Below are positions 1 to 55,760 of a stretch of 64,000 bases of DNA, one piece after another. Location of the stretch: IMG/VR virus record IMGVR_UViG_2576861193_000002. One strand, written 5' to 3'. Numbering within the stretch: the stretch's first letter is position 1; the number at the start of each line of letters is the position of its first letter. This DNA is from a virus. Its lineage: Duplodnaviria; Heunggongvirae; Uroviricota; Caudoviricetes. The notes below the pieces were generated by a model. It was not told the origin of the DNA and made no database searches. It saw only the letters and a list, made by a program, of their open reading frames with translations. The translations under genes and the position numbers were made by a program.

Positions 1-98
1 ATCTGCGAACCCTGTCTGACTGCCTGAATACCGATGAATGGCCAGCTATTAAGACATTATCACTGCCCCGCTGGGCTAAGGAATATGCAAATGACTAA
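1..98 (+). CDS. recE: RecE (exonuclease VIII) C-terminal fragment; gene continues upstream of window
   Basis: Open frame from window edge ending ...[20 protein letters not shown]-stop; stop overlaps recT ATG; Rac recE-recT synteny. Confidence 0.55.
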
Positions 99-900
99 GC
101 AACCACCAATCGCAAAAGCCGATCTGCAAAAAACTCAGGGAAACCGTGCACCAGCAGCAGTTAAAAATAGCGACGTGATTAGTTTTATTAACCAGCCATC
201 AATGAAAGAGCAACTGGCAGCAGCTCTTCCACGCCATATGACGGCTGAACGTATGATCCGTATCGCCACCACAGAAATTCGTAAAGTTCCGGCGTTAGGA
301 AACTGTGACACTATGAGTTTTGTCAGTGCGATCGTACAGTGTTCACAGCTCGGACTTGAGCCAGGTAGCGCCCTCGGTCATGCATATTTACTGCCTTTTG
401 GTAATAAAAACGAAAAGAGCGGTAAAAAGAACGTTCAGCTAATCATTGGCTATCGCGGCATGATTGATCTGGCTCGCCGTTCTGGTCAAATCGCCAGCCT
501 GTCAGCCCGTGTTGTCCGTGAAGGTGACGAGTTTAGCTTCGAATTTGGCCTTGATGAAAAGTTAATACACCGCCCGGGAGAAAACGAAGATGCCCCGGTT
601 ACCCACGTCTATGCTGTCGCAAGACTGAAAGACGGAGGTACTCAGTTTGAAGTTATGACGCGCAAACAGATTGAGCTGGTGCGCAGCCTGAGTAAAGCTG
701 GTAATAACGGGCCGTGGGTAACTCACTGGGAAGAAATGGCAAAGAAAACGGCTATTCGTCGCCTGTTCAAATATCTGCCCGTATCAATTGAGATCCAGCG
801 TGCAGTATCAATGGATGAAAAGGAACCACTGACAATCGATCCTGCAGATTCCTCTGTATTAACCGGGGAATACAGTGTAATCGATAATTCAGAGGAATAA
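91..900 (+). CDS. recT: RecT ssDNA-annealing recombinase (Rac prophage)
   Basis: ORF 34..900; in-frame Met at 91 gives 269 aa [14 protein letters not shown]...; RecT family. Confidence 0.9.
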
Positions 901-956
901 TTCAGGCTGGCGGTGTAATGCACCGCCAACTTGAAATATTTTTTATGAGAAAAATT

Positions 957-1151
957 ATGAGATATGACAATGTTAAACCATGTCCATTTTGTGGTTGTCC
1001 ATCAGTAACGGTGAAAGCCATTTCAGGATATTACCGAGCGAAGTGTAACGGATGCGAATCCCGAACCGGTTATGGTGGAAGTGAAAAAGAAGCACTCGAA
1101 AGATGGAATAAACGAACCACTGGAAATAATAATGGAGGTGTTCATGTATAA
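957..1151 (+). CDS. ralR: Lar/RalR restriction-alleviation protein
   Basis: 64 aa MRYDNVKPCPFCGCPSV..., Cys-rich; internal start of ORF 918..1151. Confidence 0.8.
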   Translation: MRYDNVKPCPFCGCPSVTVKAISGYYRAKCNGCESRTGYGGSEKEALERWNKRTTGNNNGGVHV

Positions 1152-1353
1152 AATTACCGCCACTATTGAAAAGGAAGGTGGCACTCCTACTAACTGGACA
1201 AGATATTCAAAATCTAAACTAACGAAATCAGAATGCGAAAAAATGCTCTCAGGTAAAAAAGAAGCAGGCGTTTCCAGAGAGCAGAAAGTAAAACTGATAA
1301 ATTTTAATTGCGAGAAACTTCAGTCCTCGAGAATTGCATTGTATTCAAATTAA
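1144..1353 (+). CDS. ydaC: Rac small protein YdaC/RcbA
   Basis: 69 aa MYKITATIEKEGG...; internal start of ORF 1072..1353. Confidence 0.7.
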   Translation: MYKITATIEKEGGTPTNWTRYSKSKLTKSECEKMLSGKKEAGVSREQKVKLINFNCEKLQSSRIALYSN

Positions 1354-1431
1354 AACTTCATAGCTGATTATTAATAATCAACATCGGGCGTCAATTTCAG
1401 TCTAACATTGGCGCCTGCCAGAGGTGATGCG

Positions 1432-1647
1432 ATGGCACAAGTAATCTTTAATGAAGAGTGGATGGTTGAATACGGCCTGATGCTTCGCACTGGTCTGGGG
1501 GCCAGACAAATTGAAGCATACCGCCAGAACTGTTGGGTGGAGGGCTTCCACTTCAAACGAGTATCTCCTTTAGGTAAGCCAGACAGCAAACGAGGGATTA
1601 TCTGGTACAACTATCCAAAGATAAATCAGTTTATCAAAGACTCATGA
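1432..1647 (+). CDS. xisR: Rac excisionase XisR
   Basis: 71 aa [15 protein letters not shown]...; directly upstream of intR. Confidence 0.7.
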
Positions 1648-1648
1648 T

Positions 1649-2884
1649 ATGTCTAAATTACCAACAGGTGTCGAGATTAGAGGTAGATACATTCGCATCT
1701 GGTTCATGTTTCGAGGAAAACGATGTCGGGAAACATTAAAAGGCTGGGAGATTACAAACAGTAATATTAAAAAGGCCGGAAATTTAAGAGTGCTGGTAGT
1801 TCATGAAATAAACTCCGGTGAATTTGAGTATTTAAGACGTTTTCCCCAGTCCAGCACTGGGGCAAAAATGGTGACAACGAGAGTCATAAAAACGTTCGGA
1901 GAGCTTTGTGATATCTGGACAAAAATTAAAGAGACAGAGTTAACAACAAACACAATGAAGAAAACGAAATCACAATTAAAAACACTCAGAATAATAATTT
2001 GTGAAAGTACCCCGATATCACATATTCGTTATAGCGATATCTTAAACTACCGGAATGAACTGCTGCATGGAGAAACGCTTTACCTGGATAATCCAAGATC
2101 CAACAAAAAAGGAAGAACCGTGCGCACAGTTGATAACTATATCGCCCTGCTCTGTTCGCTGTTGCGTTTTGCGTATCAGTCGGGATTTATATCAACCAAA
2201 CCATTTGAAGGAGTAAAAAAATTACAGCGAAACAGAATAAAGCCTGATCCGTTATCTAAAACAGAATTCAATGCATTAATGGAAAGTGAAAAAGGACAGA
2301 GCCAGAACTTGTGGAAATTTGCCGTTTACTCAGGACTTCGTCACGGGGAACTGGCAGCTCTGGCGTGGGAGGATGTGGATCTCGAAAAGGGAATAGTGAA
2401 TGTCAGAAGAAACCTGACGATACTTGATATGTTCGGTCCCCCAAAAACAAATGCCGGGATCCGAACAGTAACACTACTGCAGCCTGCTCTTGAAGCACTG
2501 AAGGAGCAATACAAACTGACCGGGCATCATCGCAAAAGCGAAATCACCTTTTATCATCGGGAGTACGGCAGAACCGAAAAGCAAAAACTGCATTTTGTTT
2601 TCATGCCCAGGGTGTGTAACGGAAAACAAAAACCTTATTACTCGGTAAGCAGTTTGGGGGCAAGGTGGAATGCAGCAGTAAAACGTGCTGGTATTCGCCG
2701 CCGTAATCCGTACCATACGCGGCATACTTTTGCCTGCTGGCTGTTGACGGCAGGAGCGAACCCGGCATTTATAGCCAGCCAAATGGGGCATGAAACTGCG
2801 CAGATGGTGTATGAAATTTACGGTATGTGGATTGATGACATGAACGACGAACAGATAGCCATGTTGAATGCGCGGTTATCGTAG
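1649..2884 (+). CDS. intR: Rac prophage tyrosine integrase IntR
   Basis: 411 aa; C-terminal catalytic region (NPYHTRHTFACWLL ... MVYEIY) typical of tyrosine recombinases. Confidence 0.9.
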   Translation: MSKLPTGVEIRGRYIRIWFMFRGKRCRETLKGWEITNSNIKKAGNLRVLVVHEINSGEFEYLRRFPQSSTGAKMVTTRVIKTFGELCDIWTKIKETELTTNTMKKTKSQLKTLRIIICESTPISHIRYSDILNYRNELLHGETLYLDNPRSNKKGRTVRTVDNYIALLCSLLRFAYQSGFISTKPFEGVKKLQRNRIKPDPLSKTEFNALMESEKGQSQNLWKFAVYSGLRHGELAALAWEDVDLEKGIVNVRRNLTILDMFGPPKTNAGIRTVTLLQPALEALKEQYKLTGHHRKSEITFYHREYGRTEKQKLHFVFMPRVCNGKQKPYYSVSSLGARWNAAVKRAGIRRRNPYHTRHTFACWLLTAGANPAFIASQMGHETAQMVYEIYGMWIDDMNDEQIAMLNARLS

Positions 2885-2935
2885 TTGCAAAGTTTGCCCC
2901 CAATTTGCCCCACTTAGTACCAGAGAACTGAAATA

Positions 2936-3871
2936 ATGCAAGAAAATCAACAAATTACAAAGAAAGAACAATACAACCTGAACAAATTACAAAAACGTCT
3001 GCGTCGTAACGTGGGCGAAGCCATTGCTGACTTCAATATGATTGAAGAAGGCGATCGCATCATGGTTTGCCTCTCCGGGGGTAAAGACAGCTATACCATG
3101 CTGGAGATTCTGCGCAATTTGCAGCAAAGCGCGCCAATCAATTTTTCGCTGGTGGCTGTTAACCTCGATCAAAAGCAACCGGGCTTCCCGGAACACGTTC
3201 TGCCCGAGTATCTTGAAAAGCTGGGCGTTGAGTACAAGATTGTTGAAGAGAATACTTACGGTATCGTGAAAGAGAAGATTCCAGAGGGCAAAACCACTTG
3301 CTCACTGTGTTCTCGCCTTCGTCGCGGTATCCTTTATCGTACCGCAACGGAACTGGGGGCGACGAAGATCGCGTTGGGTCACCATCGTGACGATATCCTG
3401 CAAACGTTGTTCTTAAATATGTTCTACGGCGGTAAGATGAAAGGTATGCCTCCGAAACTGATGAGCGATGATGGCAAACATATCGTTATTCGTCCGCTGG
3501 CCTACTGCCGCGAGAAAGATATTCAGCGATTTGCCGATGCAAAAGCGTTCCCGATTATTCCGTGCAACCTGTGCGGTTCACAGCCTAACCTGCAACGTCA
3601 GGTGATTGCTGACATGTTGCGTGACTGGGATAAACGTTATCCAGGGCGTATCGAGACGATGTTCAGCGCGATGCAGAATGTGGTGCCGTCGCATCTGTGC
3701 GATACCAACCTGTTCGATTTCAAAGGCATCACCCACGGTTCTGAAGTGGTTAACGGGGGTGATCTGGCGTTTGATCGCGAAGAGATCCCACTACAACCGG
3801 CGTGCTGGCAGCCAGAAGAAGATGAAAATCAGTTGGATGAGTTACGGCTGAATGTGGTTGAAGTGAAATAA
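2936..3871 (+). CDS. ttcA: tRNA 2-thiocytidine biosynthesis protein TtcA
   Basis: 311 aa; PP-loop SGGKDS motif and CxxC pairs. Confidence 0.92.
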
Positions 3872-3875
3872 CCAG

Positions 3876-3957
3876 GATAGCGCCCGATGCGCAAGCGTAT
3901 CGGGCTACTCTTATGGAGGCCGGATAAGACGCGGCCAGCGTCGCATCCGGCAATCCC
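3876..3957. repeat. REP/BIME-type extragenic palindromes between convergent ttcA and dbpA
   Basis: GCCGGATAAGACGCGGCCAGCGTCGCATCCGGC-type imperfect palindromes. Confidence 0.5.
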
Positions 3958-3999
3958 GAATAAGATGTTTACTCTTGCACCCGGCAATTCAACATTTCA

Positions 4000-5373
4000 T
4001 TATTTTAATAACCGCACCCGGCACGTTTTTCCTTTAATCTTCCCGCCCTGTAACTGTTTCCATGCTTTATGAGCAACAGCCTGACGGACCGCGACATAGA
4101 CATGCGCCGGATGCACGGCGATTTTGCCAATATCTGCGCCATCAAGCCCGATATCTCCTGTCAGTGCACCTAATACATCACCCGGGCGCATTTTGGCTTT
4201 TTTCCCGCCATCGATACACAACGTTGCCATTTCTGCTTCCAGCGTCGCAATGGAACTATTAGCTGGCGGCGTTTGCCAGTTAAGTTTTATCTGCAACATG
4301 TCAGAAATGATATTGGCCCGCTGTGCTTCTTCCGGAGCACAGAAACTGATCGCCAGACCGCTATTTCCTGCACGAGCTGTACGACCGATGCGATGTACAT
4401 GAACTTCAGGGTCCCACGCCAGCTCAAAGTTCACCACCAGCTCAAGCGATTTAATATCCAGACCACGCGCAGCAACATCAGTCGCGACCAGTACACGGGC
4501 GCTACCGTTAGCAAAACGTACCAGGGTCTGATCGCGATCGCGTTGCTCCAAATCGCCGTGTAATGACAATGCACTTTGCCCTACTTCATTCAGCGCGTCG
4601 CAGACAGCCTGGCAATCTTTTTTGGTATTGCAAAACACCACGCAAGAGGATGGCTGATGCAAGCTTAATAACCGTTGCAACAGAGGAATTTTGCCTTTGC
4701 TGGATGTCTCATAAAATTGTTGTTCAATGGGTGGCAAAGCATCTGTTGAGTCAATTTCAATCGCCAAAGGATCGCGTTGCACTCGTCCGCTGATTGCAGC
4801 GATGGCTTCCGGCCAGGTTGCCGAAAACAGAAGCGTCTGTCGAGATGCAGGCGCAAAACGGATGACATCATCAATGGCATCGCTAAATCCCATATCCAGC
4901 ATGCGGTCGGCCTCATCCATCACCAGCGTATTCAACGCATCCAGTGATACCGTGCCTTTTTGCAGGTGATCCAGCAAACGCCCCGGCGTTGCCACGATAA
5001 TATGCGGCGCATGTTGCAACGAATCACGCTGCATACCGAACGGTTGACCACCGCACAACGTCAAAATTTTGGTATTTGGCAGAAAACGCGCCAGCCGACG
5101 CAATTCACCTGCCACCTGATCCGCCAGTTCACGCGTAGGACACAGCACTAAAGCCTGGGTTTGAAATAGCGACGCATCAATTTGCTGTAACAAGCCGAGG
5201 CCAAAAGCCGCCGTTTTGCCGCTGCCGGTTTTCGCCTGCACGCGAACATCTTTTCCGGCAAGGATCGCCGGAAGCGCGGCGGCCTGCACCGGCGTCATGG
5301 TTAAATAACCCAACTCATTAAGGTTCGTGAGTTGGGCGGGAGGCAAAACATTCAGGGTAGAAAAAGCGGTCAC
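4000..5373 (-). CDS. dbpA: ATP-dependent RNA helicase DbpA (DEAD-box)
   Basis: 457 aa; Walker A AKTGSGKT, DEAD box VMDEAD, SAT, HRIGRTAR motifs. Confidence 0.92.
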   Translation of the reverse strand: MTAFSTLNVLPPAQLTNLNELGYLTMTPVQAAALPAILAGKDVRVQAKTGSGKTAAFGLGLLQQIDASLFQTQALVLCPTRELADQVAGELRRLARFLPNTKILTLCGGQPFGMQRDSLQHAPHIIVATPGRLLDHLQKGTVSLDALNTLVMDEADRMLDMGFSDAIDDVIRFAPASRQTLLFSATWPEAIAAISGRVQRDPLAIEIDSTDALPPIEQQFYETSSKGKIPLLQRLLSLHQPSSCVVFCNTKKDCQAVCDALNEVGQSALSLHGDLEQRDRDQTLVRFANGSARVLVATDVAARGLDIKSLELVVNFELAWDPEVHVHRIGRTARAGNSGLAISFCAPEEAQRANIISDMLQIKLNWQTPPANSSIATLEAEMATLCIDGGKKAKMRPGDVLGALTGDIGLDGADIGKIAVHPAHVYVAVRQAVAHKAWKQLQGGKIKGKTCRVRLLK

Positions 5374-5402
5374 AATCTATTCTCGTGGTCATCGACGCAA
5401 AG

Positions 5403-5576
5403 TTAGCAGGCGCGTATCCTCGCAGATCTACGCTCACGATGCGACAATTTAATCGGTTCTTCATCGGGTGGTGGGTCAGGCATGGGTTGCGGGCGAGGGA
5501 TCGGATCGGGCACTGGAACAGGATCGCCAGGAATCGGTTCAGGGACAGGAATTTGCAAATAAATAAGTGTCGTCAT
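5403..5576 (-). CDS. small proline-rich hypothetical protein (57 aa)
   Basis: MTTLIYLQIPVPEPIPGDPVPVPDPIPRPQPMPDPPPDEE...; GAGGG RBS before ATG; below ORF-track size cutoff; coordinates approximate. Confidence 0.3.
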   Translation of the reverse strand: MTTLIYLQIPVPEPIPGDPVPVPDPIPRPQPMPDPPPDEEPIKLSHRERRSARIRAC

Positions 5577-5632
5577 ATTTCCCTCTGGTCATTGGGTGGA
5601 CTCTTAAAGGGTAGACGCTGATAAATAACAGG

Positions 5633-5662
5633 CAAAAAAAAGCCGACTCATCAAAGTCGGCG
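5633..5662 (-). terminator. rho-independent terminator downstream of zntB (possibly bidirectional)
   Basis: GCCGACTcatcaaaGTCGGC hairpin flanked by A-run on plus strand, T-run on minus. Confidence 0.5.
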
Positions 5663-5850
5663 TCGTACGAATCAATTGTGCTATGCAGTAATTCAAAAAA
5701 GGAAGTAAGACAATATGGAGCGCAACGCCCATCGCTTGACGTTGCATTCACCTGCAAGAGAGATATTGCCCTGAATGGGTAGAGAGTTTATTGACTTCGC
5801 TCAAACTTTGCGGCGTTTTTGTATACAGACAGCCGGAAAAATTGCTTTTG

Positions 5851-6855
<1,005 letters not shown>

Positions 6856-7088
6856 TTATTTTGTAGTCTAGCCTTCTGGCCCTGTTACGCAACATCTCAT
6901 CACCCCATTACCCTGAAATGATTAATAAAATTCTGTCTAAATTGAATACAAAAAGCAAAATGCTTTTCCGTATACAAACCGTGTGAAGTGTTAAATAGCG
7001 TCTATCATTATCAGAATTATCTGATCATATGACGTGGCTTTTTTGCGATCGGATAGCAACAAAAATTGATAAAAATAACGGGATCTCA

Positions 7089-20794: not shown

Positions 20795-21754
20795 ATGGTC
20801 GGATATAAAATGGGTGTGATTATGGCGCGAAAAATGACACATGAAGAACATATTGCAGATATAGCAAATGTCAATCCTCGTGTTGATATTTTAGGAGAAA
20901 TTACAGGCTGCAATGATAAGGTGTCGTGTCGTTGCAGAGTTTGTAACCACAAATGGCGTACTACGCCGCACAGCCTTAAGGCTGGCAGGGGCTGCCCCGA
21001 ATGTAAAAGAACAAAGATAGCACGAATAAAACAACTATCACATAACGATCATGTTGCTGCAATTGCTAATGTTAATCCATTTGTTGAAGTGCTAGAAAAA
21101 ATTGTTAATGTAAAGAAAAAGATCGCATGTCGTTGTAATAATTGCAAAAACATATGGATGACTACGCCAAATGATCTCAAAAACGGTCACGGCTGTCCGA
21201 AATGCTCTGGCGTAGCGAAGCTGTCACATGAAGAGCAGATTGCAGCTATTGCGAAAGTTAACCAAAATGTTGATGTAATAGGCAATATTGTTAATGACAA
21301 AACAAAAGTATCATGCCGCTGCAAGGCTTGCGGTCATGTGTGGTCGGCTACGCCTAACGACCTTAAAAATGGGCGCGGCTGCCCGAAATGCGCGAAACGA
21401 GGGTTTTTATCCCACGAACACGGAAAACTTTACATCATGGTTGATGATCTTGAAGTGCCAACAATGATGAAAATCGGCGTGAGCGTTAAGGAGAACGAGC
21501 GAAGAAATAAAGTATTAAAAAGCGCACATAAAGCAGGTGTCAGAATCCCTGATTTGTATGTCGTGAAAACGTGGGTGGGGCCAACTGAAAAAGTACAAGA
21601 ATTAGAAAGCACGATGCATAAGGCTTTTAGCAATTATAAAATTAACTTCCCTGTAAAATTTGATGGCAGTAATGAATTTTTCTACTACAGGCCGGAAGTA
21701 TTCAGCATGGTAGAAAGTACATACAGTGATATTGTAAATAAAAATGCGGCATGA
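20795..21754 (+). CDS. triple zinc-ribbon + T5orf172 (GIY-YIG-like) domain protein
   Basis: Three ~57-aa repeats each with CRCxxC...GxGCPxC; C-terminus GKLYIMV..MKIGVS..ERRNKVL...ESTMHKAF...NEFF matches T5orf172 pattern. Confidence 0.6.
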   Translation: MVGYKMGVIMARKMTHEEHIADIANVNPRVDILGEITGCNDKVSCRCRVCNHKWRTTPHSLKAGRGCPECKRTKIARIKQLSHNDHVAAIANVNPFVEVLEKIVNVKKKIACRCNNCKNIWMTTPNDLKNGHGCPKCSGVAKLSHEEQIAAIAKVNQNVDVIGNIVNDKTKVSCRCKACGHVWSATPNDLKNGRGCPKCAKRGFLSHEHGKLYIMVDDLEVPTMMKIGVSVKENERRNKVLKSAHKAGVRIPDLYVVKTWVGPTEKVQELESTMHKAFSNYKINFPVKFDGSNEFFYYRPEVFSMVESTYSDIVNKNAA

Positions 21755-42003: not shown

Positions 42004-42480
42004 TTACTTCCCGTGATTTGGATGAAAACCATATTTAATTTCAGCTTCTTGTCTCGCTTTGATTGCGTCCTCCATTCTGTCGAATCTGCCTAAACTAATA
42101 CATTTATAATTTACCCAAATTTGCGAATGCCATTTCTTGCGCTCTTTATCCCAATAAACACCAATATAACCACTGGTATTGTTTTTGTTTTTTGGTCTAT
42201 TCTTCGCGTTCTCCTTGCCTAACACCAATCTAAAATTATTAAGCCTGTTATTGCTAGGGTCGTGATCCAAATGGTCTATCTCGTACCCTTCCTGGATCGG
42301 GCCGTTGTGCATTTCCCAAATAATACGGTGAGCTTTATACCATCTACCAAAAAGCCTAACGCGTATGCGACCAGTATCATTTGGACACCCAGCAATACTA
42401 CCGGCTTTCATTCTACCGCGTGACTTTTTCCATATCAGGTTAATACCATCGTAACAAAACCATTCGTGCCAGTTCATCAT
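42004..42480 (-). CDS. HNH homing endonuclease with AP2 domain
   Basis: EIDHLDHDPSNNRLNNFRLV; inserted between ninG and rusA. Confidence 0.8.
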   Translation of the reverse strand: MMNWHEWFCYDGINLIWKKSRGRMKAGSIAGCPNDTGRIRVRLFGRWYKAHRIIWEMHNGPIQEGYEIDHLDHDPSNNRLNNFRLVLGKENAKNRPKNKNNTSGYIGVYWDKERKKWHSQIWVNYKCISLGRFDRMEDAIKARQEAEIKYGFHPNHGK

Positions 42481-42495
42481 GCAATACACCCCCAA

Positions 42496-43124: not shown

Positions 43125-43301
43125 TTATTTTTGATTTTCTGTTTCGTTCAGCCTTTCGGCGTGTCCGGCCCTTAGCCAATGATCTAAACATTCGTTGCAC
43201 TCGTTGCAGTCTCCTTTCTTCGTGCTGCATACATTGCACATTGCACGCATGACGCTCTCTCTTTCATAGTCGTCATGCCATTGGTAATTATCAAAAGGCA
43301 T
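43125..43301 (-). CDS. ninF: NinF-like small Cys-rich protein
   Basis: 58 aa MPFDNYQWHDDYERESVMRAMCNVC...; AGGAG-like RBS; below ORF-track cutoff. Confidence 0.45.
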   Translation of the reverse strand: MPFDNYQWHDDYERESVMRAMCNVCSTKKGDCNECNECLDHWLRAGHAERLNETENQK

Positions 43302-43379
43302 AATGCTCTCTCCTTTTCAGGTGATTTCTACGCATTTCAGCGCTGCCGGATTTTTAAAGAGCATCTTGCTTGTTTGAAG

Positions 43380-43458
43380 TATACAAAATGGATACATCAG
43401 AACAAGGTGAATAGCGCCATTATGTGATCCACATCACGCAATGACGCCATTTTGTAAA
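43380..43458. promoter_or_regulatory. intergenic regulatory region with TATACAAAATGG / CCATTTTGTAAA and TGTGATccacATCAC palindrome
   Basis: 12-mer shared with 24039, 24067, 50996. Confidence 0.4.
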
Positions 43459-43460
43459 TT

Positions 43461-44219
43461 TCAGTCCGGTAAAACGCGGTCATGGTTAGCCATGAATACA
43501 GCACGGGCAAAGCCGCGCGGAGTTAGTGAGCGTATCATCTTTGTTCGTTTCGTCCTGCCTCCTGTTTTCGCCCACCCAGGGTTATCACCAGAGTTAAGAT
43601 CCACAGGTCTGAAAAGCGGCTGTTTAAATCCGTTACCGCACCAAATACAAGTTTTCTTCGTGTACGCGTCTCGCGGCGGGTAAACATCAGGGAAAGCAGG
43701 ATGTTTGTCATCTTCAGGCAGGTAGCCACCGTAAGCGCACGGGTTGAAGATAAAATCAGGTTTACGCCATAGCGTTGACAGTGCGCCCACAGGATTTTCC
43801 ACCATCCACGGCACGTTGTGCATATCCGCCAGTTTTTCTACCAGTTTTGCGCTATTCGCCGCCTTCACCTGGAAGTCAGGATCTTTTTTCCGTTTATCAG
43901 CGAACCAGCGAGCGCCAGACACGGCGAGATCGTCGCACGGAGGCCACCCCATGATAATGTCAGGCTCTGGATAAACAGACAATTCAGGTGAGAACATTAC
44001 CAGGAAATGGCTGTCAATCCATACGTTAACGTATTCAATATTCGGATGAATGATTTTAACGCCTTCATAATCGCCGTGATTTGCGCCGTCATAGTTGAAG
44101 CAATAGCACTTATATCCTGCTTCCGCCCAATCTTTAACGGCGTACCCACTGCCGTCGTACAGCGACCAAACGACCCAATTTCTAAGCCAATTATTTAACC
44201 AATGTTTACCCCTTCTCAT
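43461..44219 (-). CDS. putative DNA cytosine-C5 methyltransferase-like protein
   Basis: 252 aa; LYDGSGY (motif I-like), GWPPC (PC motif), MVENPVGAL (ENV motif); short for a full enzyme. Confidence 0.5.
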   Translation of the reverse strand: MRRGKHWLNNWLRNWVVWSLYDGSGYAVKDWAEAGYKCYCFNYDGANHGDYEGVKIIHPNIEYVNVWIDSHFLVMFSPELSVYPEPDIIMGWPPCDDLAVSGARWFADKRKKDPDFQVKAANSAKLVEKLADMHNVPWMVENPVGALSTLWRKPDFIFNPCAYGGYLPEDDKHPAFPDVYPPRDAYTKKTCIWCGNGFKQPLFRPVDLNSGDNPGWAKTGGRTKRTKMIRSLTPRGFARAVFMANHDRVLPD

Positions 44220-44761
44220 TTTCTACCCTCAAACGTAAAATATCGGCGCATGATGATAGTGATCACCGTTACCGCCGCCATTTTTGAGATGAATTGCATT
44301 GCTGATATTTCCGGCATGAATGCCATAAACGATAGCGTCGGGAAAATTAACGCATCGCCAATGGCGGACGCTATATTTGCAGGCCAGCGCTTAGAATCGA
44401 AATCACCAGGCAAAACCAGGTAAACACCGCCAGAAATAAGCGCACCAGAAACAACAGCGACAAATGACGCAATTGCCACCATTCCCGCATCGTAATTTAT
44501 CATTACCGTTATTGCGCCAGCGGCGGCGCATGTTGTAGCAGACCACTTAAGACCGCCGTCATATAACAGAAAATCGCGGATCATCATATTGACACACACA
44601 GCGGCTACCGTGGTGATCGGAATTACCCACGGGCCGCAATGGTTAACAATAAGGTTGATGATCACGAAAACGGCGACATAAACACAGGCCAATAACCTGT
44701 CAATTGTCACCTTTTTCATTTGGGTCATACCTCTTATCGCGAATAGCTTCAGATCTGTCAA
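44216..44761 (-). CDS. integral membrane protein (5-6 TM)
   Basis: 181 aa hydrophobic. Confidence 0.5.
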   Translation of the reverse strand: MTDLKLFAIRGMTQMKKVTIDRLLACVYVAVFVIINLIVNHCGPWVIPITTVAAVCVNMMIRDFLLYDGGLKWSATTCAAAGAITVMINYDAGMVAIASFVAVVSGALISGGVYLVLPGDFDSKRWPANIASAIGDALIFPTLSFMAFMPEISAMQFISKMAAVTVITIIMRRYFTFEGRK

Positions 44762-45146
44762 AATTCAAATCAAGCCGAGTTGAAATACAACCACATTGAG
44801 GATTAAGAGCAGTGAACTGTTTTTTCTTTTGCTCTTCCTCATGATCGTTTAATATCTGCTCAGCTTTTAGTGCGCTGTAGCTAATCAAATCAACCAGACT
44901 ATCTGTTGGGTCGCTCCCATTGACCAAAATGGCCTCTAAACGCGCCTCCTTGAGACAAATCAACAGATCCCATACATCAAGTGGGGTTAAATTTGTCCCC
45001 TTTTTAGCGTTGTAAATAGTGGCTATTTTTGGCGCTGACTTTTCCTCTTTTCTGTCGTACCCGTTTTGTTTACCCCTTTGCTCTATTGTTTCCGCTGCAA
45101 GTCGTAATAAATCTGCCGCACTAGTCATTATCTTCACCTCTTGCAT
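44700..45146 (-). CDS. hypothetical protein
   Basis: 148 aa ORF. Confidence 0.4.
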   Translation of the reverse strand: MQEVKIMTSAADLLRLAAETIEQRGKQNGYDRKEEKSAPKIATIYNAKKGTNLTPLDVWDLLICLKEARLEAILVNGSDPTDSLVDLISYSALKAEQILNDHEEEQKKKQFTALNPQCGCISTRLDLNFDRSEAIRDKRYDPNEKGDN

Positions 45147-45660
45147 ATAGCTCTTTACGTGTTATCTGCGTGAAAATACATTCATGTCTGCACCGTGGAT
45201 GCCAGATCAAAAACAAGCTACCCTTATTGTTTCCGCTTGCTGGTTTCCCTGTCGCAGCATTGATAAACGCCAGCCGCCCGCGCGTGATTAATCGGCACTC
45301 GTTTGCCGTCTCCACGCCGTTCATGAACCAGCTAACAGAAATGTCAGCGGGCAATAACATTACGCAACCGATATGGTTTCTGCTGTGTTCAAGCGCCGCT
45401 TTATCAACGAATGGCCCCGGATTCGAATATGGCGGATTCATCCAGACATATTCGCCAGGCATTGCCACCGCTCCCCACGGATAATGCAGCGTGTCCATTT
45501 CTTCTGTTATATACCGAGGAACTAGCGCATTTTCCTTGTTTGCCGCCACGTCAGCGACAAATTCAAACTCGCGGTCCATTCCTCTGAAAACTGGTTTAGG
45601 CGTCTGCCATAGATCTTTAATTTCCTTAGGAGTGTGGCTGCCTCCAAAATCATTTTTCAT
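45121..45660 (-). CDS. DNA N6-adenine methyltransferase (phage Dam-type)
   Basis: 179 aa; NPPY motif (MNPPYS). Confidence 0.8.
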   Translation of the reverse strand: MKNDFGGSHTPKEIKDLWQTPKPVFRGMDREFEFVADVAANKENALVPRYITEEMDTLHYPWGAVAMPGEYVWMNPPYSNPGPFVDKAALEHSRNHIGCVMLLPADISVSWFMNGVETANECRLITRGRLAFINAATGKPASGNNKGSLFLIWHPRCRHECIFTQITRKELYARGEDND

Positions 45661-53678: not shown

Positions 53679-55760
53679 TTGATTGTATATATGCAAAAGC
53701 AAATTACTAAATACGAGGTATTAATGATGTCTAGATATTTTGTATCGATAAGAGGAAGTAAATTTTTTGCAAAAATTGATGAAGGAATGGTGTTTATGCG
53801 GAAGCGTAAATATCAAACGTGGGATCGTTGTGGTAAAAAAAGCGAGTTTGTACGCGCGGTGGCCGGTGGCTATTGGAAGGAAATAACAGCGGCGGAAGCT
53901 GGCGATTTTAAGTACGCTGATTGCAGCCAGTGCGCGGAGAACTGGCCTGAATTATTTGATTATCATCCTGATGGGTATCTGATTAGCAAGGTTAAGCGGG
54001 GTACGGGAAAGAGTTTAATTAAACCTGGCGGTATAATTCGCGGAACAGTAAGTTCTCAGGGAAATTTATATATTGGTATAAATGGTCATTATTATCAATT
54101 ATCTCGCGTAGTATATGAAATGTTTAACGGCCCTATTCCTGATGGTTACGTGATAAAGAATGATAATAAGTCATGCACAAAAATAGAAAACCTGAAATTA
54201 ATATCACGGAACGGAAAAATAACAAAGCATAATGTTATTGGTAAAAGCGGAATCAGAGGTGTTTATTGGAATAAGAAAAATAATAAATGGATGGCAAATG
54301 TTAGTTACGATTATTTAGGTTGTTTCGATAATATCAACGACGCAATAAACGCGTGTATCATGGGTGAAATTAAACGTTACGGCAGGCAAATGAACCACTT
54401 CCCTGATTATATCTCACCAGAGGAAGAGGAGCGCATTAAACAGCGTTATTATGAAGGTGACGAAATGAAACAGATCAAAATTAACACTAAACCTCCTGAA
54501 CCTGAATTTAAATACAACACATTCAGGTTTAAAAAGCGCGATATTAGAATCAACGGAAACAATTATATAAGCCTGGTAGATCTATTCCGGGCGATGGGTG
54601 GAAGTAGTAGCGAGCAGTTCAGGCAGCAGATCGACAAATTCGAAGATGTTCCGGTGTTTGATTATTTCCTTAACCGTGGCGAGGACTACGAAGACGAATA
54701 CTTTGCACCTCCGTTAATGGCGCAAATGTTCGTACAGCGGTTGGGCAACGCTTGCGACGGCGTGGAACTGCTTAACACTTACATTGCATATTGCAACGTC
54801 ATGGCGGCAGCAGATGACCAGGCTGATAGCGGGCAGGTGGAAGACCTGAAAGGCCAAGTGAAAGCGGCTTGCGGCAAGATCAAGGAACTGGAACAGGAGA
54901 ACAGGGAAAAACAATCGACTATCGATCAAATCACTCGAGATAAAGCGCAAGCAACGTTGTACGACCTCAATAGCTATTACCGAAAATATATCGACGAGTG
55001 CGCTGAACGCATGAGGGTTGAACATCAACGCGACAACATGGAGGGGCAGATCAGCGAATTGCAGGGACTGCTTAACGTGGCAAGAGAGGATCGCAATAAC
55101 TATCAAGATCGGGCGAACTACTGGAACCATCAATATAACCAGGCAAATAAAGCATTTGGGGAGGAACAGGATAAACGCCAGAAATTAGAAAGAGAAAACG
55201 ACAACCTGGTAAAAACTAATTGCGAACTACGCCAAAAACTCAACGCTGCAAATGACGAAGACGCAAAAGCGAAAGCTGCGGCAGACAAACAAACAATCAA
55301 CGACCTTCGCGCAGATCTGGAGGAAGCAAAAGAAACAATCAATGCGCAACAACAGGAGGCACGCAACAAGGCTCTGGCTATCAAGGGATATCAGCTTAAA
55401 GTGGCAGAACTTGAGGACGATAAACGGGAACTGCAAAACAATCTGAATATCTTGCAAACTGGTCATAATATCCTGCTGGATCGCTACAACAAGCTAACTG
55501 CTCGCAACATGCGCCGCCGCGCAGCACAAAAACGGTATATGGGTGATCTGCACAATAACCACGTAACTGATACGCTTGAGTGGATGCAGGCAATAAAAGG
55601 TGCTGGCGACTATTACAAACAACGCCAACAGCGCAACCAGGAGCGTTATCGTAAGCTGATAATGGCATTGCAAGACAAAGTAAAAGAATTGCTGTACCGC
55701 CTCGATAAAAAGCCAGAAGGCGGATTCTTTAGCAAGGTTAAAGGTTTATTTAACCATTGA
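53679..55760 (+). CDS. multidomain protein: degenerate HNH-AP2 module + KilA-N/Bro-N-like domain + ~300-aa coiled coil
   Basis: 693 aa; AP2-like SGIRGVYWNKKNNKWMANVSY; HNH His positions replaced; FRFKKRDIRINGNNYISLVDLFRAMGG; heptad-rich C-terminus; start uncertain. Confidence 0.55.
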   Translation: MIVYMQKQITKYEVLMMSRYFVSIRGSKFFAKIDEGMVFMRKRKYQTWDRCGKKSEFVRAVAGGYWKEITAAEAGDFKYADCSQCAENWPELFDYHPDGYLISKVKRGTGKSLIKPGGIIRGTVSSQGNLYIGINGHYYQLSRVVYEMFNGPIPDGYVIKNDNKSCTKIENLKLISRNGKITKHNVIGKSGIRGVYWNKKNNKWMANVSYDYLGCFDNINDAINACIMGEIKRYGRQMNHFPDYISPEEEERIKQRYYEGDEMKQIKINTKPPEPEFKYNTFRFKKRDIRINGNNYISLVDLFRAMGGSSSEQFRQQIDKFEDVPVFDYFLNRGEDYEDEYFAPPLMAQMFVQRLGNACDGVELLNTYIAYCNVMAAADDQADSGQVEDLKGQVKAACGKIKELEQENREKQSTIDQITRDKAQATLYDLNSYYRKYIDECAERMRVEHQRDNMEGQISELQGLLNVAREDRNNYQDRANYWNHQYNQANKAFGEEQDKRQKLERENDNLVKTNCELRQKLNAANDEDAKAKAAADKQTINDLRADLEEAKETINAQQQEARNKALAIKGYQLKVAELEDDKRELQNNLNILQTGHNILLDRYNKLTARNMRRRAAQKRYMGDLHNNHVTDTLEWMQAIKGAGDYYKQRQQRNQERYRKLIMALQDKVKELLYRLDKKPEGGFFSKVKGLFNH

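What the first reader, a model, noticed from the sequence alone, without database searches (positions are those of the whole stretch)
43461..45660. Two DNA methyltransferase genes (C5-type-like and Dam-type) flanking a membrane protein in the nin-like region
The Dam-type gene has the NPPY motif. The 252-aa protein has motif I, PC and ENV-like motifs but is too short to carry a full target-recognition domain. Together they suggest anti-restriction DNA modification; the membrane protein between them is unexplained.
Basis: partly seen in the sequence, partly recalled or inferred. Interest (0 to 1): 0.4.

Follow-up and report, generated by a model that had tools for sequence, protein, structure and literature searches.

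The report
Prophage methylase pair plus orphan importer
An E. coli prophage carries two ordinary phage DNA methylase genes (one for adenine, one for cytosine), and between them sit a small protein of unknown function and a membrane importer of the queuosine-precursor family that here lacks its usual DNA-modifying partner enzyme.

Summary
All four lie on the minus strand and overlap one another.

- **45121-45660:** a phage N6-adenine methyltransferase. It passes the Pfam PF05869 and NCBIfam TIGR01712 cut-offs and has NPPY at residues 75-78.
- **44700-45128:** Its function is unknown.
- **44216-44719:** a 167-aa membrane protein, identified here as a divergent member of the VUT/YhhQ (COG1738) importer family.
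- **43461-44219:** a Dcm-like C5-cytosine methyltransferase.

The "too short" concern does not hold. The 252-aa protein is 62% identical to the Dcm of phage KarlJaspers. A near-identical phage (K42) has a Dcm shown experimentally to make 5mC at CCWGG and to trigger retron Ec86. All four mutated residues of that enzyme are conserved here, and the predicted fold matches DNMT3A/B.

The window is an mEp021-like prophage in E. coli, and the four-gene order is conserved across that phage group.

One mildly unusual point remains. In eight other phage isolates the VUT gene abuts a DpdA-like transglycosylase gene. This prophage has no DpdA and no preQ0 pathway genes, yet its VUT gene is the most constrained of the four (dN/dS 0.02-0.03).

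Verdict: ordinary orphan methylases that are already annotated as such, plus a newly assigned importer whose role is unresolved. Interest is low to moderate.

The parts
45121..45660 (-). Phage orphan N6-adenine DNA methyltransferase (Dam-type, 179 aa), NPPY at residues 75-78
   Evidence: Pfam PF05869 E 6.5e-52 and NCBIfam TIGR01712 at 141 bits, above its 97-bit cut-off. phrog_111 E 4e-64. 95.5% identical to mEp021 gp30. Homologues in 1,880 phage records. dN/dS 0.05-0.09.
44700..45128 (-).
   Evidence: Pfam PF19905 E 4e-8. A 100% identical 142-aa E. coli protein is named 'DUF6378 domain-containing protein'. The conserved N-terminal ~95 aa is predicted helical and the C-terminal tail varies. The start overlaps the dam stop by 8 nt.
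44216..44719 (-). 167-aa polytopic membrane protein, a divergent member of the VUT/YhhQ (COG1738, Pfam Vut_1) importer family
   Evidence: Its own Pfam score is sub-threshold (E 0.78) but spans profile positions 6-149 of 152. A family-profile search gave 260 hits, and 77 of the 81 aligned sequences (80 hits plus the window protein) pass Vut_1 at E<=0.001. hhalign against CAjan gp41 'preQ0 transporter': 97.4% probability, E 1.2e-11. tblastn of Opt-719 and PEAT2 'VUT family protein' queries against the window: E 9e-27 and 3e-15. Four separate hydrophobic regions by a 17-residue hydropathy scan; mEp021 annotation gives 6 TM. dN/dS 0.02-0.03.
43461..44219 (-). Dcm-like orphan C5-cytosine DNA methyltransferase (252 aa) with a DNMT3-like fold
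   Evidence: phrog_757 E 1e-85. 62% identical (E 1e-106) to KarlJaspers bas06_0055. C95, E141, K188 and K189 align with C82, E128, K175 and K176 of the tested K42 Dcm. AlphaFold2 pLDDT 88; top Foldseek hits are DNMT3B/3A at E 4e-7. ATGA overlap with the VUT stop.
43302..43460 (-). Conserved non-coding stretch at the end of the cassette: terminator t4 hairpin (43414-43447), boxA-like TGCTCTTTAAAAA (43351-43363) and boxB-like hairpin (43331-43343), probably nutR2
   Evidence: The 175 aligned bases (43296-43470) that span this stretch are 174/175 identical to mEp021, while flanking genes have dS 0.23-0.5. mEp021 annotates TERM_4 at the homologous position. PMC11893012 places nutR2 and t4 downstream of this methylase gene. 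The boxA/boxB reading is my inference from the sequence.

Best explanation
This is the conserved early-region accessory cassette of an mEp021-like (mEpimmI group) temperate coliphage, integrated between zntB and dgcM of E. coli. Four overlapping genes are probably transcribed together, and the unit ends at terminator t4 and nutR2.

Two of the genes are independent orphan DNA methyltransferases: a minimal phage Dam-type m6A enzyme and a Dcm-like m5C enzyme with a DNMT3-like fold. The inferred mechanism is that both use SAM to methylate replicating phage DNA, and the host chromosome as well. Progeny DNA is then pre-protected against restriction enzymes that cut the unmethylated sites. The Dcm-like enzyme probably targets CCWGG, as its tested homologue appears to, and would make the phage visible to retron Ec86.

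The membrane protein is a VUT/YhhQ-family importer. The most likely substrate is a 7-deazaguanine base (preQ0, preQ1 or queuine). Because the phage has no DpdA, the imported base would feed the host queuosine-tRNA pathway rather than phage DNA.

Shown here: family membership, conservation of catalytic residues, gene order and purifying selection. Inferred: target sequences, anti-restriction benefit and transporter substrate. DUF6378 remains unassigned.
For: **Dam-type gene.** Curated HMMs are passed well above their cut-offs and NPPY is present.

**Dcm-like gene.**
- It is 62% identical to KarlJaspers Dcm, with the tested residues C82/E128/K175/K176 all conserved.
- K42 Dcm makes 5mC by LC-MS and triggers retron Ec86.
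- The AlphaFold2 model is confident (pLDDT 88) and matches DNMT3A/B at Foldseek probability 1.0.
- Motifs I, IV, VI and the C-terminal RSLTPRGFA block are invariant or nearly so across 34 homologues.

**VUT gene.** Support comes from a transitive profile search, hhalign and direct BLAST to annotated VUT proteins. One of those, PEAT2 gp18, itself passes Vut_1 at 38 bits.

**Cassette.**
- The gene order is conserved in mEp021, five other mEp phages, MagusPhagus, 35 of 5,426 complete E. coli genomes, and a relative at 54-66% aa identity.
- The genes overlap and have ribosome-binding sites.
- All four are under purifying selection, dN/dS 0.02-0.18.

**No deazaguanine machinery.** No DpdA and no preQ0 pathway genes were found anywhere in the window.
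Against: - Neither target sequence was measured, and at 62% identity specificity can differ.
- E. coli already has its own Dam and Dcm, so the anti-restriction benefit depends on the host. GATC and CCWGG occur at expected frequency in the prophage (O/E 1.06 and 0.95), which gives no signal either way.
- The window C5 protein does not hit Pfam PF00145 at all, and Foldseek TM-scores are only 0.4-0.5.
- The VUT protein's own Pfam score (10.5 bits) is far below the 27.2-bit cut-off.
- In all 8 isolated phages checked outside this group, VUT is paired with DpdA. A DpdA-less VUT therefore lacks an established role, and E. coli already has YhhQ.
- Co-transcription is inferred from overlaps and from the mEp021 annotation. 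It was not measured.
Confidence: 0.75

Rival explanations
1. The four genes form one DNA hypermodification pathway. The VUT protein imports a base or cofactor, and the C5-methyltransferase-like enzyme, perhaps with DUF6378, installs it on phage DNA. This would functionally replace the VUT-DpdA pair seen in other phages.
For: The Dcm-like gene occupies the slot directly downstream of VUT, with a 4-nt overlap. That slot holds DpdA in 7 of 8 other phage isolates. The four-gene order persists down to 54-66% aa identity. VUT is the most constrained gene of the four.
Against: Homologues of the C5 enzyme at 55-62% identity stand alone, without VUT or DUF6378, in a DNA-polymerase-A/tailspike contig, a phage with a T1-type holin and a ~150-kb phage contig. 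The tested homologue makes plain 5mC. VUT homologues also occur without either partner. Early regions of temperate phages are mosaics in which adjacency is weak evidence.
Confidence: 0.07
2. The membrane protein is a VUT-fold protein put to another use. Candidates are import of a different small molecule, superinfection exclusion, or membrane perturbation, unrelated to 7-deazapurines.
For: It is very divergent: Pfam E 0.78, and about 27-35% identity to annotated phage VUT proteins. No DpdA or queuosine genes occur in the phage. The host already has YhhQ. Substrates have been tested for only a few VUT family members (from memory).
Against: Family-wide conserved positions are all retained: Y14, N22, G29, R48, D49, A84, S85, N115, D122, F126, P127, F131, K146. 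dN/dS of 0.02-0.03 argues for a precise molecular function. Its nearest phage relatives sit next to DpdA.
Confidence: 0.25
3. The 252-aa protein is a degenerate, catalytically dead remnant of a C5 methyltransferase that has lost its target-recognition domain.
For: It is short, has no Pfam PF00145 hit, and has no sequence-level PDB hit as a single sequence.
Against: The catalytic Cys, the ENP Glu, the SAM-binding loop and the C-terminal motif are invariant or nearly so across 34 homologues. dN/dS is 0.05-0.16. The family has more than 7,700 members of the same length. A 236-aa member is active in vivo.
Confidence: 0.03
4. The methylases serve mainly purposes other than restriction evasion, for example timing of phage gene expression or packaging, control of lysogeny, or countering methylation-sensing defences.
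For: E. coli K-12 hosts already methylate GATC and CCWGG. There is no motif depletion or enrichment in the prophage. Phage Dcm interacts with a defence system, retron Ec86.
Against: No direct evidence exists for a regulatory role in this phage group. Anti-restriction is the role usually inferred for phage orphan methylases (established knowledge, not tested here).
Confidence: 0.15

Closest known systems
Dcm-like C5 cytosine methyltransferase of Drexlerviridae phages KarlJaspers (bas06_0055) and K42
   Same: 62% identity over 232 aa (E 1e-106). The same spacing separates the catalytic Cys, the ENP Glu and the KK pair. Same length class and same DNMT3-like predicted fold.
   Different: The window protein has a 13-residue longer N-terminus. 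It sits in a temperate phage, translationally coupled to a VUT gene. Its target sequence and any retron triggering are untested.
DNMT3A/DNMT3B catalytic domain (e.g. PDB 6U8P, 6F57)
   Same: Best structural match (Foldseek E 4e-7, probability 1.0). The profile alignment covers motif I to motif IV.
   Different: Only 12-19% identity and TM-scores of 0.4-0.5. The eukaryotic enzymes act as DNMT3L-assisted oligomers on CpG.
Phage N6-adenine methyltransferase family (Pfam PF05869, NCBIfam TIGR01712)
   Same: Full-length HMM match above the curated cut-offs, NPPY motif, about 170-180 aa.
   Different: Nothing distinctive. Identity to homologues in Stx phages and Vibrio phages is about 42-44%. Target sequence unknown.
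YhhQ/COG1738 (Pfam Vut_1) preQ0/preQ1 importers, including phage CAjan gp41 and Pectobacterium phage PEAT2 gp18
   Same: Same family by profile methods. Same short ~155-170 aa phage form. Family-conserved residues are kept.
   Different: CAjan gp41 lies in a preQ0-synthesis and DpdA cluster, and PEAT2 gp18 overlaps a DpdA-like gene. The window phage has neither. Its own Pfam score is below threshold.
E. coli Dcm / M.EcoRII-type C5 methyltransferases (Pfam PF00145)
   Same: Same catalytic motif set (FxGxG-like, PC, ENV-like). CCWGG is the probable target by analogy with K42 Dcm.
   Different: No PF00145 hit for the window protein.

Membership tests
Phage N6-adenine DNA methyltransferase (PF05869 / TIGR01712) | Full-length match to the family HMMs above the curated cut-offs | tested here: met
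   PF05869: 176.1 bits against a 28.1 cut-off, residues 7-176 on profile positions 1-167 of 169. TIGR01712: 141.4 bits against 97.05.
Phage N6-adenine DNA methyltransferase (PF05869 / TIGR01712) | Catalytic (D/N)PP(Y/F/W) motif | tested here: met
   NPPY at residues 75-78.
Phage N6-adenine DNA methyltransferase (PF05869 / TIGR01712) | N6-adenine methylation of a defined target such as GATC | not testable with these tools
   Needs SMRT or nanopore methylome data, or restriction-protection assays.
C5-cytosine DNA methyltransferase (phage Dcm-like, DNMT3-like subgroup) | Motif I SAM-binding loop, motif IV Pro-Cys nucleophile, motif VI ENV-type glutamate | tested here: met
   DGSG 22-25, PPC 93-95, ENP 141-143. 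G23, S24, G25, P94, C95, E141, N142 and P143 are invariant, and D22 and P93 nearly invariant, across 34 homologues.
C5-cytosine DNA methyltransferase (phage Dcm-like, DNMT3-like subgroup) | Class I methyltransferase fold superimposable on solved C5 methyltransferases | tested here: met
   AlphaFold2 pLDDT 87.9, pTM 0.86. The top Foldseek PDB hits, ranks 1-43, are DNMT3A/3B/3C chains (best E 4e-7). A prophage CP-933R methylase, 3G7U, is also found. TM-scores are only 0.4-0.5.
C5-cytosine DNA methyltransferase (phage Dcm-like, DNMT3-like subgroup) | Match to Pfam PF00145 (DNA_methylase) | tested here: not met
   No hit even at E<=10. Only 2 of the 120 listed homologues carry a precomputed PF00145 hit. 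The subgroup is too divergent for that model, and membership rests on the motifs, the fold and the tested homologue.
C5-cytosine DNA methyltransferase (phage Dcm-like, DNMT3-like subgroup) | Close homology to an experimentally active member | tested here: met
   62% identity (E 1e-106) to KarlJaspers Dcm. K42 Dcm, from a genome 95.4% identical to KarlJaspers, makes 5mC by LC-MS; the quadruple C82A/E128A/K175A/K176A mutant was the negative control in those assays.
C5-cytosine DNA methyltransferase (phage Dcm-like, DNMT3-like subgroup) | 5-methylcytosine formation by this protein, and its target sequence | not testable with these tools
   Needs bisulfite, nanopore or LC-MS analysis of DNA from a dcm- host expressing the gene.
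VUT / YhhQ (COG1738, Pfam Vut_1) transporter family | Match to Pfam PF02592 above the gathering score | tested here: not met
   10.5 bits (E 0.78) against a 27.2 cut-off, although the match is collinear over profile positions 6-149 of 152.
VUT / YhhQ (COG1738, Pfam Vut_1) transporter family | Homology to bona fide family members by profile or pairwise methods | tested here: met
   The family profile finds 260 proteins at E<=1e-3, and 77 of the 81 aligned sequences (80 hits plus the window protein) pass Vut_1 at E<=0.001. hhalign to CAjan gp41: 97.4%, E 1.2e-11. PEAT2 gp18 (Vut_1 38 bits) hits the window gene by tblastn at E 3e-15, and Opt-719 'VUT family protein' at E 9e-27.
VUT / YhhQ (COG1738, Pfam Vut_1) transporter family | Polytopic membrane protein that keeps the family-conserved residues | tested here: met
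   Hydrophobic segments span most of the 167 aa, and the mEp021 record notes 6 TM. Conserved positions Y14, N22, G29, R48, D49, A84, S85, N115, D122, F126, P127, F131 and K146 are present.
VUT / YhhQ (COG1738, Pfam Vut_1) transporter family | Transport of preQ0, preQ1 or queuine | not testable with these tools
   Needs complementation of an E. coli queD yhhQ mutant or an uptake assay.
Phage 7-deazaguanine DNA modification system (DpdA-based) | A DpdA (TGT-like DNA transglycosylase) gene | tested here: not met
   An HMM built from 8 VUT-adjacent DpdA-like proteins finds CAjan DpdA at E 8.7e-12. Its best hit among 474 window ORFs is E 0.93. tblastn with three DpdA types gives a best E of 0.15. 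No TGT domain appeared in the Pfam scans of 31 window ORFs; those scans covered the ORFs of 150 aa or more outside the tail, capsid and lysis block at 10.8-37.8 kb.
Phage 7-deazaguanine DNA modification system (DpdA-based) | [quoted passage not shown] | tested here: not met
   tblastn of the CAjan cluster proteins against the window gives no hit at E<=0.1. phmmer gives only noise at E 0.02-0.09.

The most novel reading that the evidence does not exclude
A temperate coliphage lineage keeps a VUT/YhhQ-family importer under very strong purifying selection although it has no DpdA. The gene is translationally coupled to a Dcm-like enzyme in the slot that DpdA occupies in other phages. The most novel reading not excluded is that import of a 7-deazapurine, or of another base, serves a DpdA-independent purpose in infection. 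One version is a not-yet-recognised DNA modification made with the neighbouring enzymes and DUF6378. Another is deliberate reprogramming of host queuosine-tRNA during lytic growth.
Probability: 0.1. Interest if true: 0.6.

Novelty: new member of a known kind. Interest (0 to 1): 0.25.

Why it matters
There are three practical consequences.

- **Annotation.** The short "C5-like" gene should be treated as a real Dcm-like methylase of a very large phage family. A tested member of that family triggers retron Ec86, so prophages of this group may be sensed by that defence system.
- **The membrane protein.** RefSeq E. coli records name no membrane or VUT protein in this cassette (only hypothetical proteins), and GenBank mEp021 calls it "putative membrane protein". 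It can now be labelled a VUT/YhhQ-family protein.
- **The VUT-DpdA contrast.** Eight phage isolates pair VUT with DpdA, while the mEp021 group keeps VUT alone. That gives a clean experimental handle on what a phage importer of queuosine precursors does when no DNA transglycosylase is present.

None of this changes current understanding of phage methylases.

Tried and rejected
- **DUF6378 structure.** The AlphaFold2 model from a shallow 19-sequence alignment had pLDDT 50 and pTM 0.28. It was not used for fold search. Sequence search of the PDB gave only a designed helical repeat at E 0.085. No paper describes a function.
- **PDB sequence searches.** The Dam-type protein returned only noise. The C5-like protein as a single sequence returned nothing. 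Only its family profile reached DNMT3B, at E 0.05.
- **Direct comparison of the window VUT protein with CAjan gp41.** BLASTP and a shallow 7-sequence profile were inconclusive (E 1.3 and 0.058). The 81-sequence profile was needed.
- **CAjan cluster proteins of unknown function.** I tested whether gp34, gp36, gp39, gp40 or gp43 match any cassette protein. None does.
- **The ~300-aa VUT proteins.** I checked whether they are fusions to a methylase or DUF6378, which would have been a Rosetta-stone link. They are not. Their tails have no Pfam match or match DUF5020, and one protein of the set carries a QueF-like domain.
- **The gene after VUT in phage Opt-719.** I tested whether it is a Dcm-like gene. 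It is not; it is DpdA-like.
- **Motif bias.** GATC and CCWGG show no bias in the prophage.
- **Dam specificity.** A literature search for the target of PF05869-type Dam enzymes found nothing usable.
Full report
**What is in the region**

All genes in 43461-45660 lie on the minus strand. The region holds four genes, not three.
- Dam-type ORF of 179 aa, 45121-45660.
- DUF6378 ORF of 142 aa, 44700-45128. An in-frame ATG at 45146 is an alternative start.
- Hydrophobic ORF of 167 aa, 44216-44719.
- C5-methyltransferase-like ORF of 252 aa, 43461-44219.

The junctions are ATGACTAG (8-nt overlap), a 20-nt overlap, and ATGA (4-nt overlap). Each start has a purine-rich ribosome-binding site 6-10 nt upstream. 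Downstream come a NinF-like ORF, NinG, an HNH endonuclease, RusA and a Q-type antiterminator. "Nin-like region" is therefore a fair description.

**Where the window comes from**

- The region is 90-93% identical in DNA to mEp021 and four of the five other mEp phages (mEp013 89.9%), and 87% identical to phage MagusPhagus.
- Similar prophages occur in 35 of 5,426 complete E. coli genomes, at no more than 93% identity.
- The window's DUF6378 protein is 100% identical to an E. coli protein.
- Flanking genes are a RecT and integrase remnant, ttcA, dbpA and zntB on one side. A GGDEF protein, probably dgcM, lies on the other side, next to the prophage integrase. The gene names other than the Pfam domains are my reading of the E. 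coli map.
- The same four-gene order is annotated in mEp021 (gp30-gp33) and MagusPhagus. It also occurs on a metagenomic contig whose proteins are only 54-66% identical.
- The mEpimmI paper places nutR2 and terminator t4 just downstream of the cytosine methylase gene (PMC11893012).
- The 175 bases aligned across that non-coding stretch are 174/175 identical between the window and mEp021. The flanking genes have synonymous divergence of 0.23-0.5.

**The Dam-type gene**

It passes Pfam PF05869 (176 bits, cut-off 28) and the NCBIfam equivalog TIGR01712 (141 bits, cut-off 97). Homologues are found in 1,880 of 50,697 phage records. Its target sequence cannot be read from the sequence, and I found no usable literature on it.

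**The C5-like gene**

- It has no Pfam hit, but it matches phrog_757 at E 1e-85.
- More than 7,700 homologues of 225-260 aa exist, in 1,514 phage records spanning Drexlerviridae, Klebsiella, Salmonella, Campylobacter and Vibrio phages.
- Across 34 homologues, the motif I glycines, the Pro-Cys, ENP, and a C-terminal IRSLTxR block are invariant.
- The AlphaFold2 model is confident (pLDDT 87.9). Its best PDB matches are the DNMT3B and DNMT3A catalytic domains (E 4e-7, TM-scores 0.4-0.5), followed by a prophage CP-933R methylase.
- A published preprint studied the 711-bp dcm gene of phage K42, whose genome is 95.4% identical to KarlJaspers. Expressing it triggers retron Ec86 and gives 5mC on the msDNA by LC-MS. 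Mutating the msDNA CCTGG motif was also tested. A C82A/E128A/K175A/K176A mutant served as the inactive control (10.1101/2023.08.16.553469).
- The KarlJaspers gene is also 711 bp. Its product is 62% identical to the window protein (E 1e-106). Those four residues align with window residues C95, E141, K188 and K189.

The protein is therefore a member of an experimentally validated family of short C5 methyltransferases. The concern that it is too short to work does not hold.

**The membrane protein**

- On its own it scores only E 0.78 against Pfam Vut_1, although the match is collinear over nearly the whole model.
- A profile of its seven close relatives, searched against 1.84 billion representative proteins, found 260 hits. 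Of the 81 sequences aligned (80 hits plus the window protein), 77 match Vut_1 at E<=0.001, and one also carries a QueF-like domain.
- A profile of these 81 sequences matches phage CAjan gp41, the annotated preQ0 transporter studied by deletion in PMC7544227, with 97.4% probability and E 1.2e-11.
- tblastn against isolated phages finds 14 distant relatives at 27-35% identity. Several are annotated "VUT family protein".
- Family-conserved residues are retained.
- dN/dS against mEp021 and MagusPhagus is 0.02-0.03, the lowest of the four genes.

I conclude it is a functional, divergent VUT/YhhQ-family protein. The one experimentally studied member cited in the papers read here is E. coli YhhQ, involved in preQ0 transport.

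**The missing partner**

- In all eight isolated phages I examined outside the mEp021 group, the VUT gene abuts or overlaps a 243-278 aa (stop-to-stop ORF) DpdA-like gene. The phages are PEAT2, Opt-719, LHE71, Phc, RCIP0319, Flyfo Tbat1_6, ECO111 5-P and AB3P2. The DpdA-like gene is downstream in seven and upstream in one.
- Pfam TGT misses these DpdA-like proteins, and most are annotated as hypothetical.
- An HMM built from them detects CAjan DpdA at E 8.7e-12. Its best hit among 474 stop-to-stop ORFs of the window is E 0.93.
- No preQ0 synthesis gene is detectable in the window.
- Two metagenomic phage contexts also have VUT without DpdA within the fetched flanks. Hutinet et al. noted that phage YhhQ homologues do not correlate with any particular group of phages (PMC6884629).
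- In this prophage the slot after VUT holds the Dcm-like gene.

This is the only unusual feature of the locus.

**Are the four genes one system?**

Arguments for: conserved order, overlapping reading frames, and joint purifying selection. Arguments against:
- Homologues of the C5 enzyme at 55-62% identity occur alone in unrelated phage types.
- The tested homologue makes ordinary 5mC.
- VUT homologues occur in other contexts.

I therefore read the cassette as a set of independent accessory genes in a mosaic early region, and I give the integrated-pathway reading about 7%.

**Mechanism and confidence**

- Shown here: family membership of three of the four proteins, conserved catalytic residues, gene order, and selection.
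- Inferred from established knowledge of orphan phage methylases: both enzymes methylate phage DNA during replication, which protects progeny from restriction in new hosts.
- Inferred by homology: the Dcm-like enzyme probably targets CCWGG and would expose the phage to retron Ec86.
- Inferred by family and weakly supported: the VUT protein imports a 7-deazaguanine precursor, which without DpdA can only feed the host queuosine-tRNA pathway.
- Unassigned: DUF6378. The structure prediction failed.

**Verdict**

These are ordinary phage orphan methylases, already annotated as such in GenBank and RefSeq. The analysis adds one new family assignment (VUT), one overlooked gene (DUF6378), and a modest open question about a DpdA-less importer. 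Interest is 0.25, and the novelty class is a new member of a known kind.

Noticed in passing
window 43302-43460 (- strand): The non-coding stretch between the Dcm-like gene and the NinF-like ORF is far more conserved than its neighbours: the 175 aligned bases spanning it (43296-43470) are 174/175 identical to mEp021, while the flanking genes have dS 0.23-0.5. It holds the mEp021-annotated terminator hairpin (43414-43447), a boxA-like TGCTCTTTAAAAA (43351-43363) and a boxB-like hairpin GCGCTGAAATGCG (43331-43343). This is probably the nutR2 site of the mEpimmI paper.
   Followed up: partly
window 42004-42495 (-) and 53679-55760 (+): An HNH_3 + AP2 endonuclease ORF of 163 aa sits between ninG and rusA. 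It is absent at that position in mEp021 and MagusPhagus, so it looks like a free-standing homing endonuclease insertion. A second ORF of 693 aa in the replication region also carries HNH_3 and AP2.
   Followed up: no
L021, L022, L023, L024, L025, L026, L027, L028 (eight phage isolates): There is a recurrent two-gene VUT + DpdA-like module. The 243-278 aa (stop-to-stop ORF) DpdA-like proteins get no Pfam TGT hit and are mostly annotated 'hypothetical protein'. An HMM built from them recovers CAjan DpdA at E 8.7e-12. These phages may carry unrecognised 7-deazaguanine DNA modification that relies on imported precursor.
   Followed up: partly
window 20795-21754 (+): An opposite-strand 319-aa ORF inside the tail gene block carries DUF4379/CapR-type zinc-finger repeats and a T5orf172 domain. 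It is a likely moron or nuclease-like accessory gene.
   Followed up: no
window 1-7000 and 61570-64000: Host context: a RecT and integrase remnant (34-2884), a PP-loop protein, a DbpA helicase and a CorA-like transporter (5851-6834) lie on one side. The prophage integrase (61570-62784) and a PAS-GGDEF protein (63023 onward) lie on the other. The mEp021-like prophage therefore spans roughly 7.0-62.8 kb.
   Followed up: partly
window 44700-45128 (-): The DUF6378 protein lacks about 23 residues in its variable C-terminal half compared with the common 165-aa form. The N-terminal ~95 residues are nearly invariant across E. coli prophages.
   Followed up: no
proteins P0158, P0161, P0167, P0202, P0208 (hits): Some VUT-family proteins of about 300-340 aa carry a C-terminal extension. 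It matches DUF5020 in one case, and the others have no significant Pfam match (one only a marginal SycN hit at E 0.07). One protein among the 81 scanned also carries a QueF-like domain.
   Followed up: no
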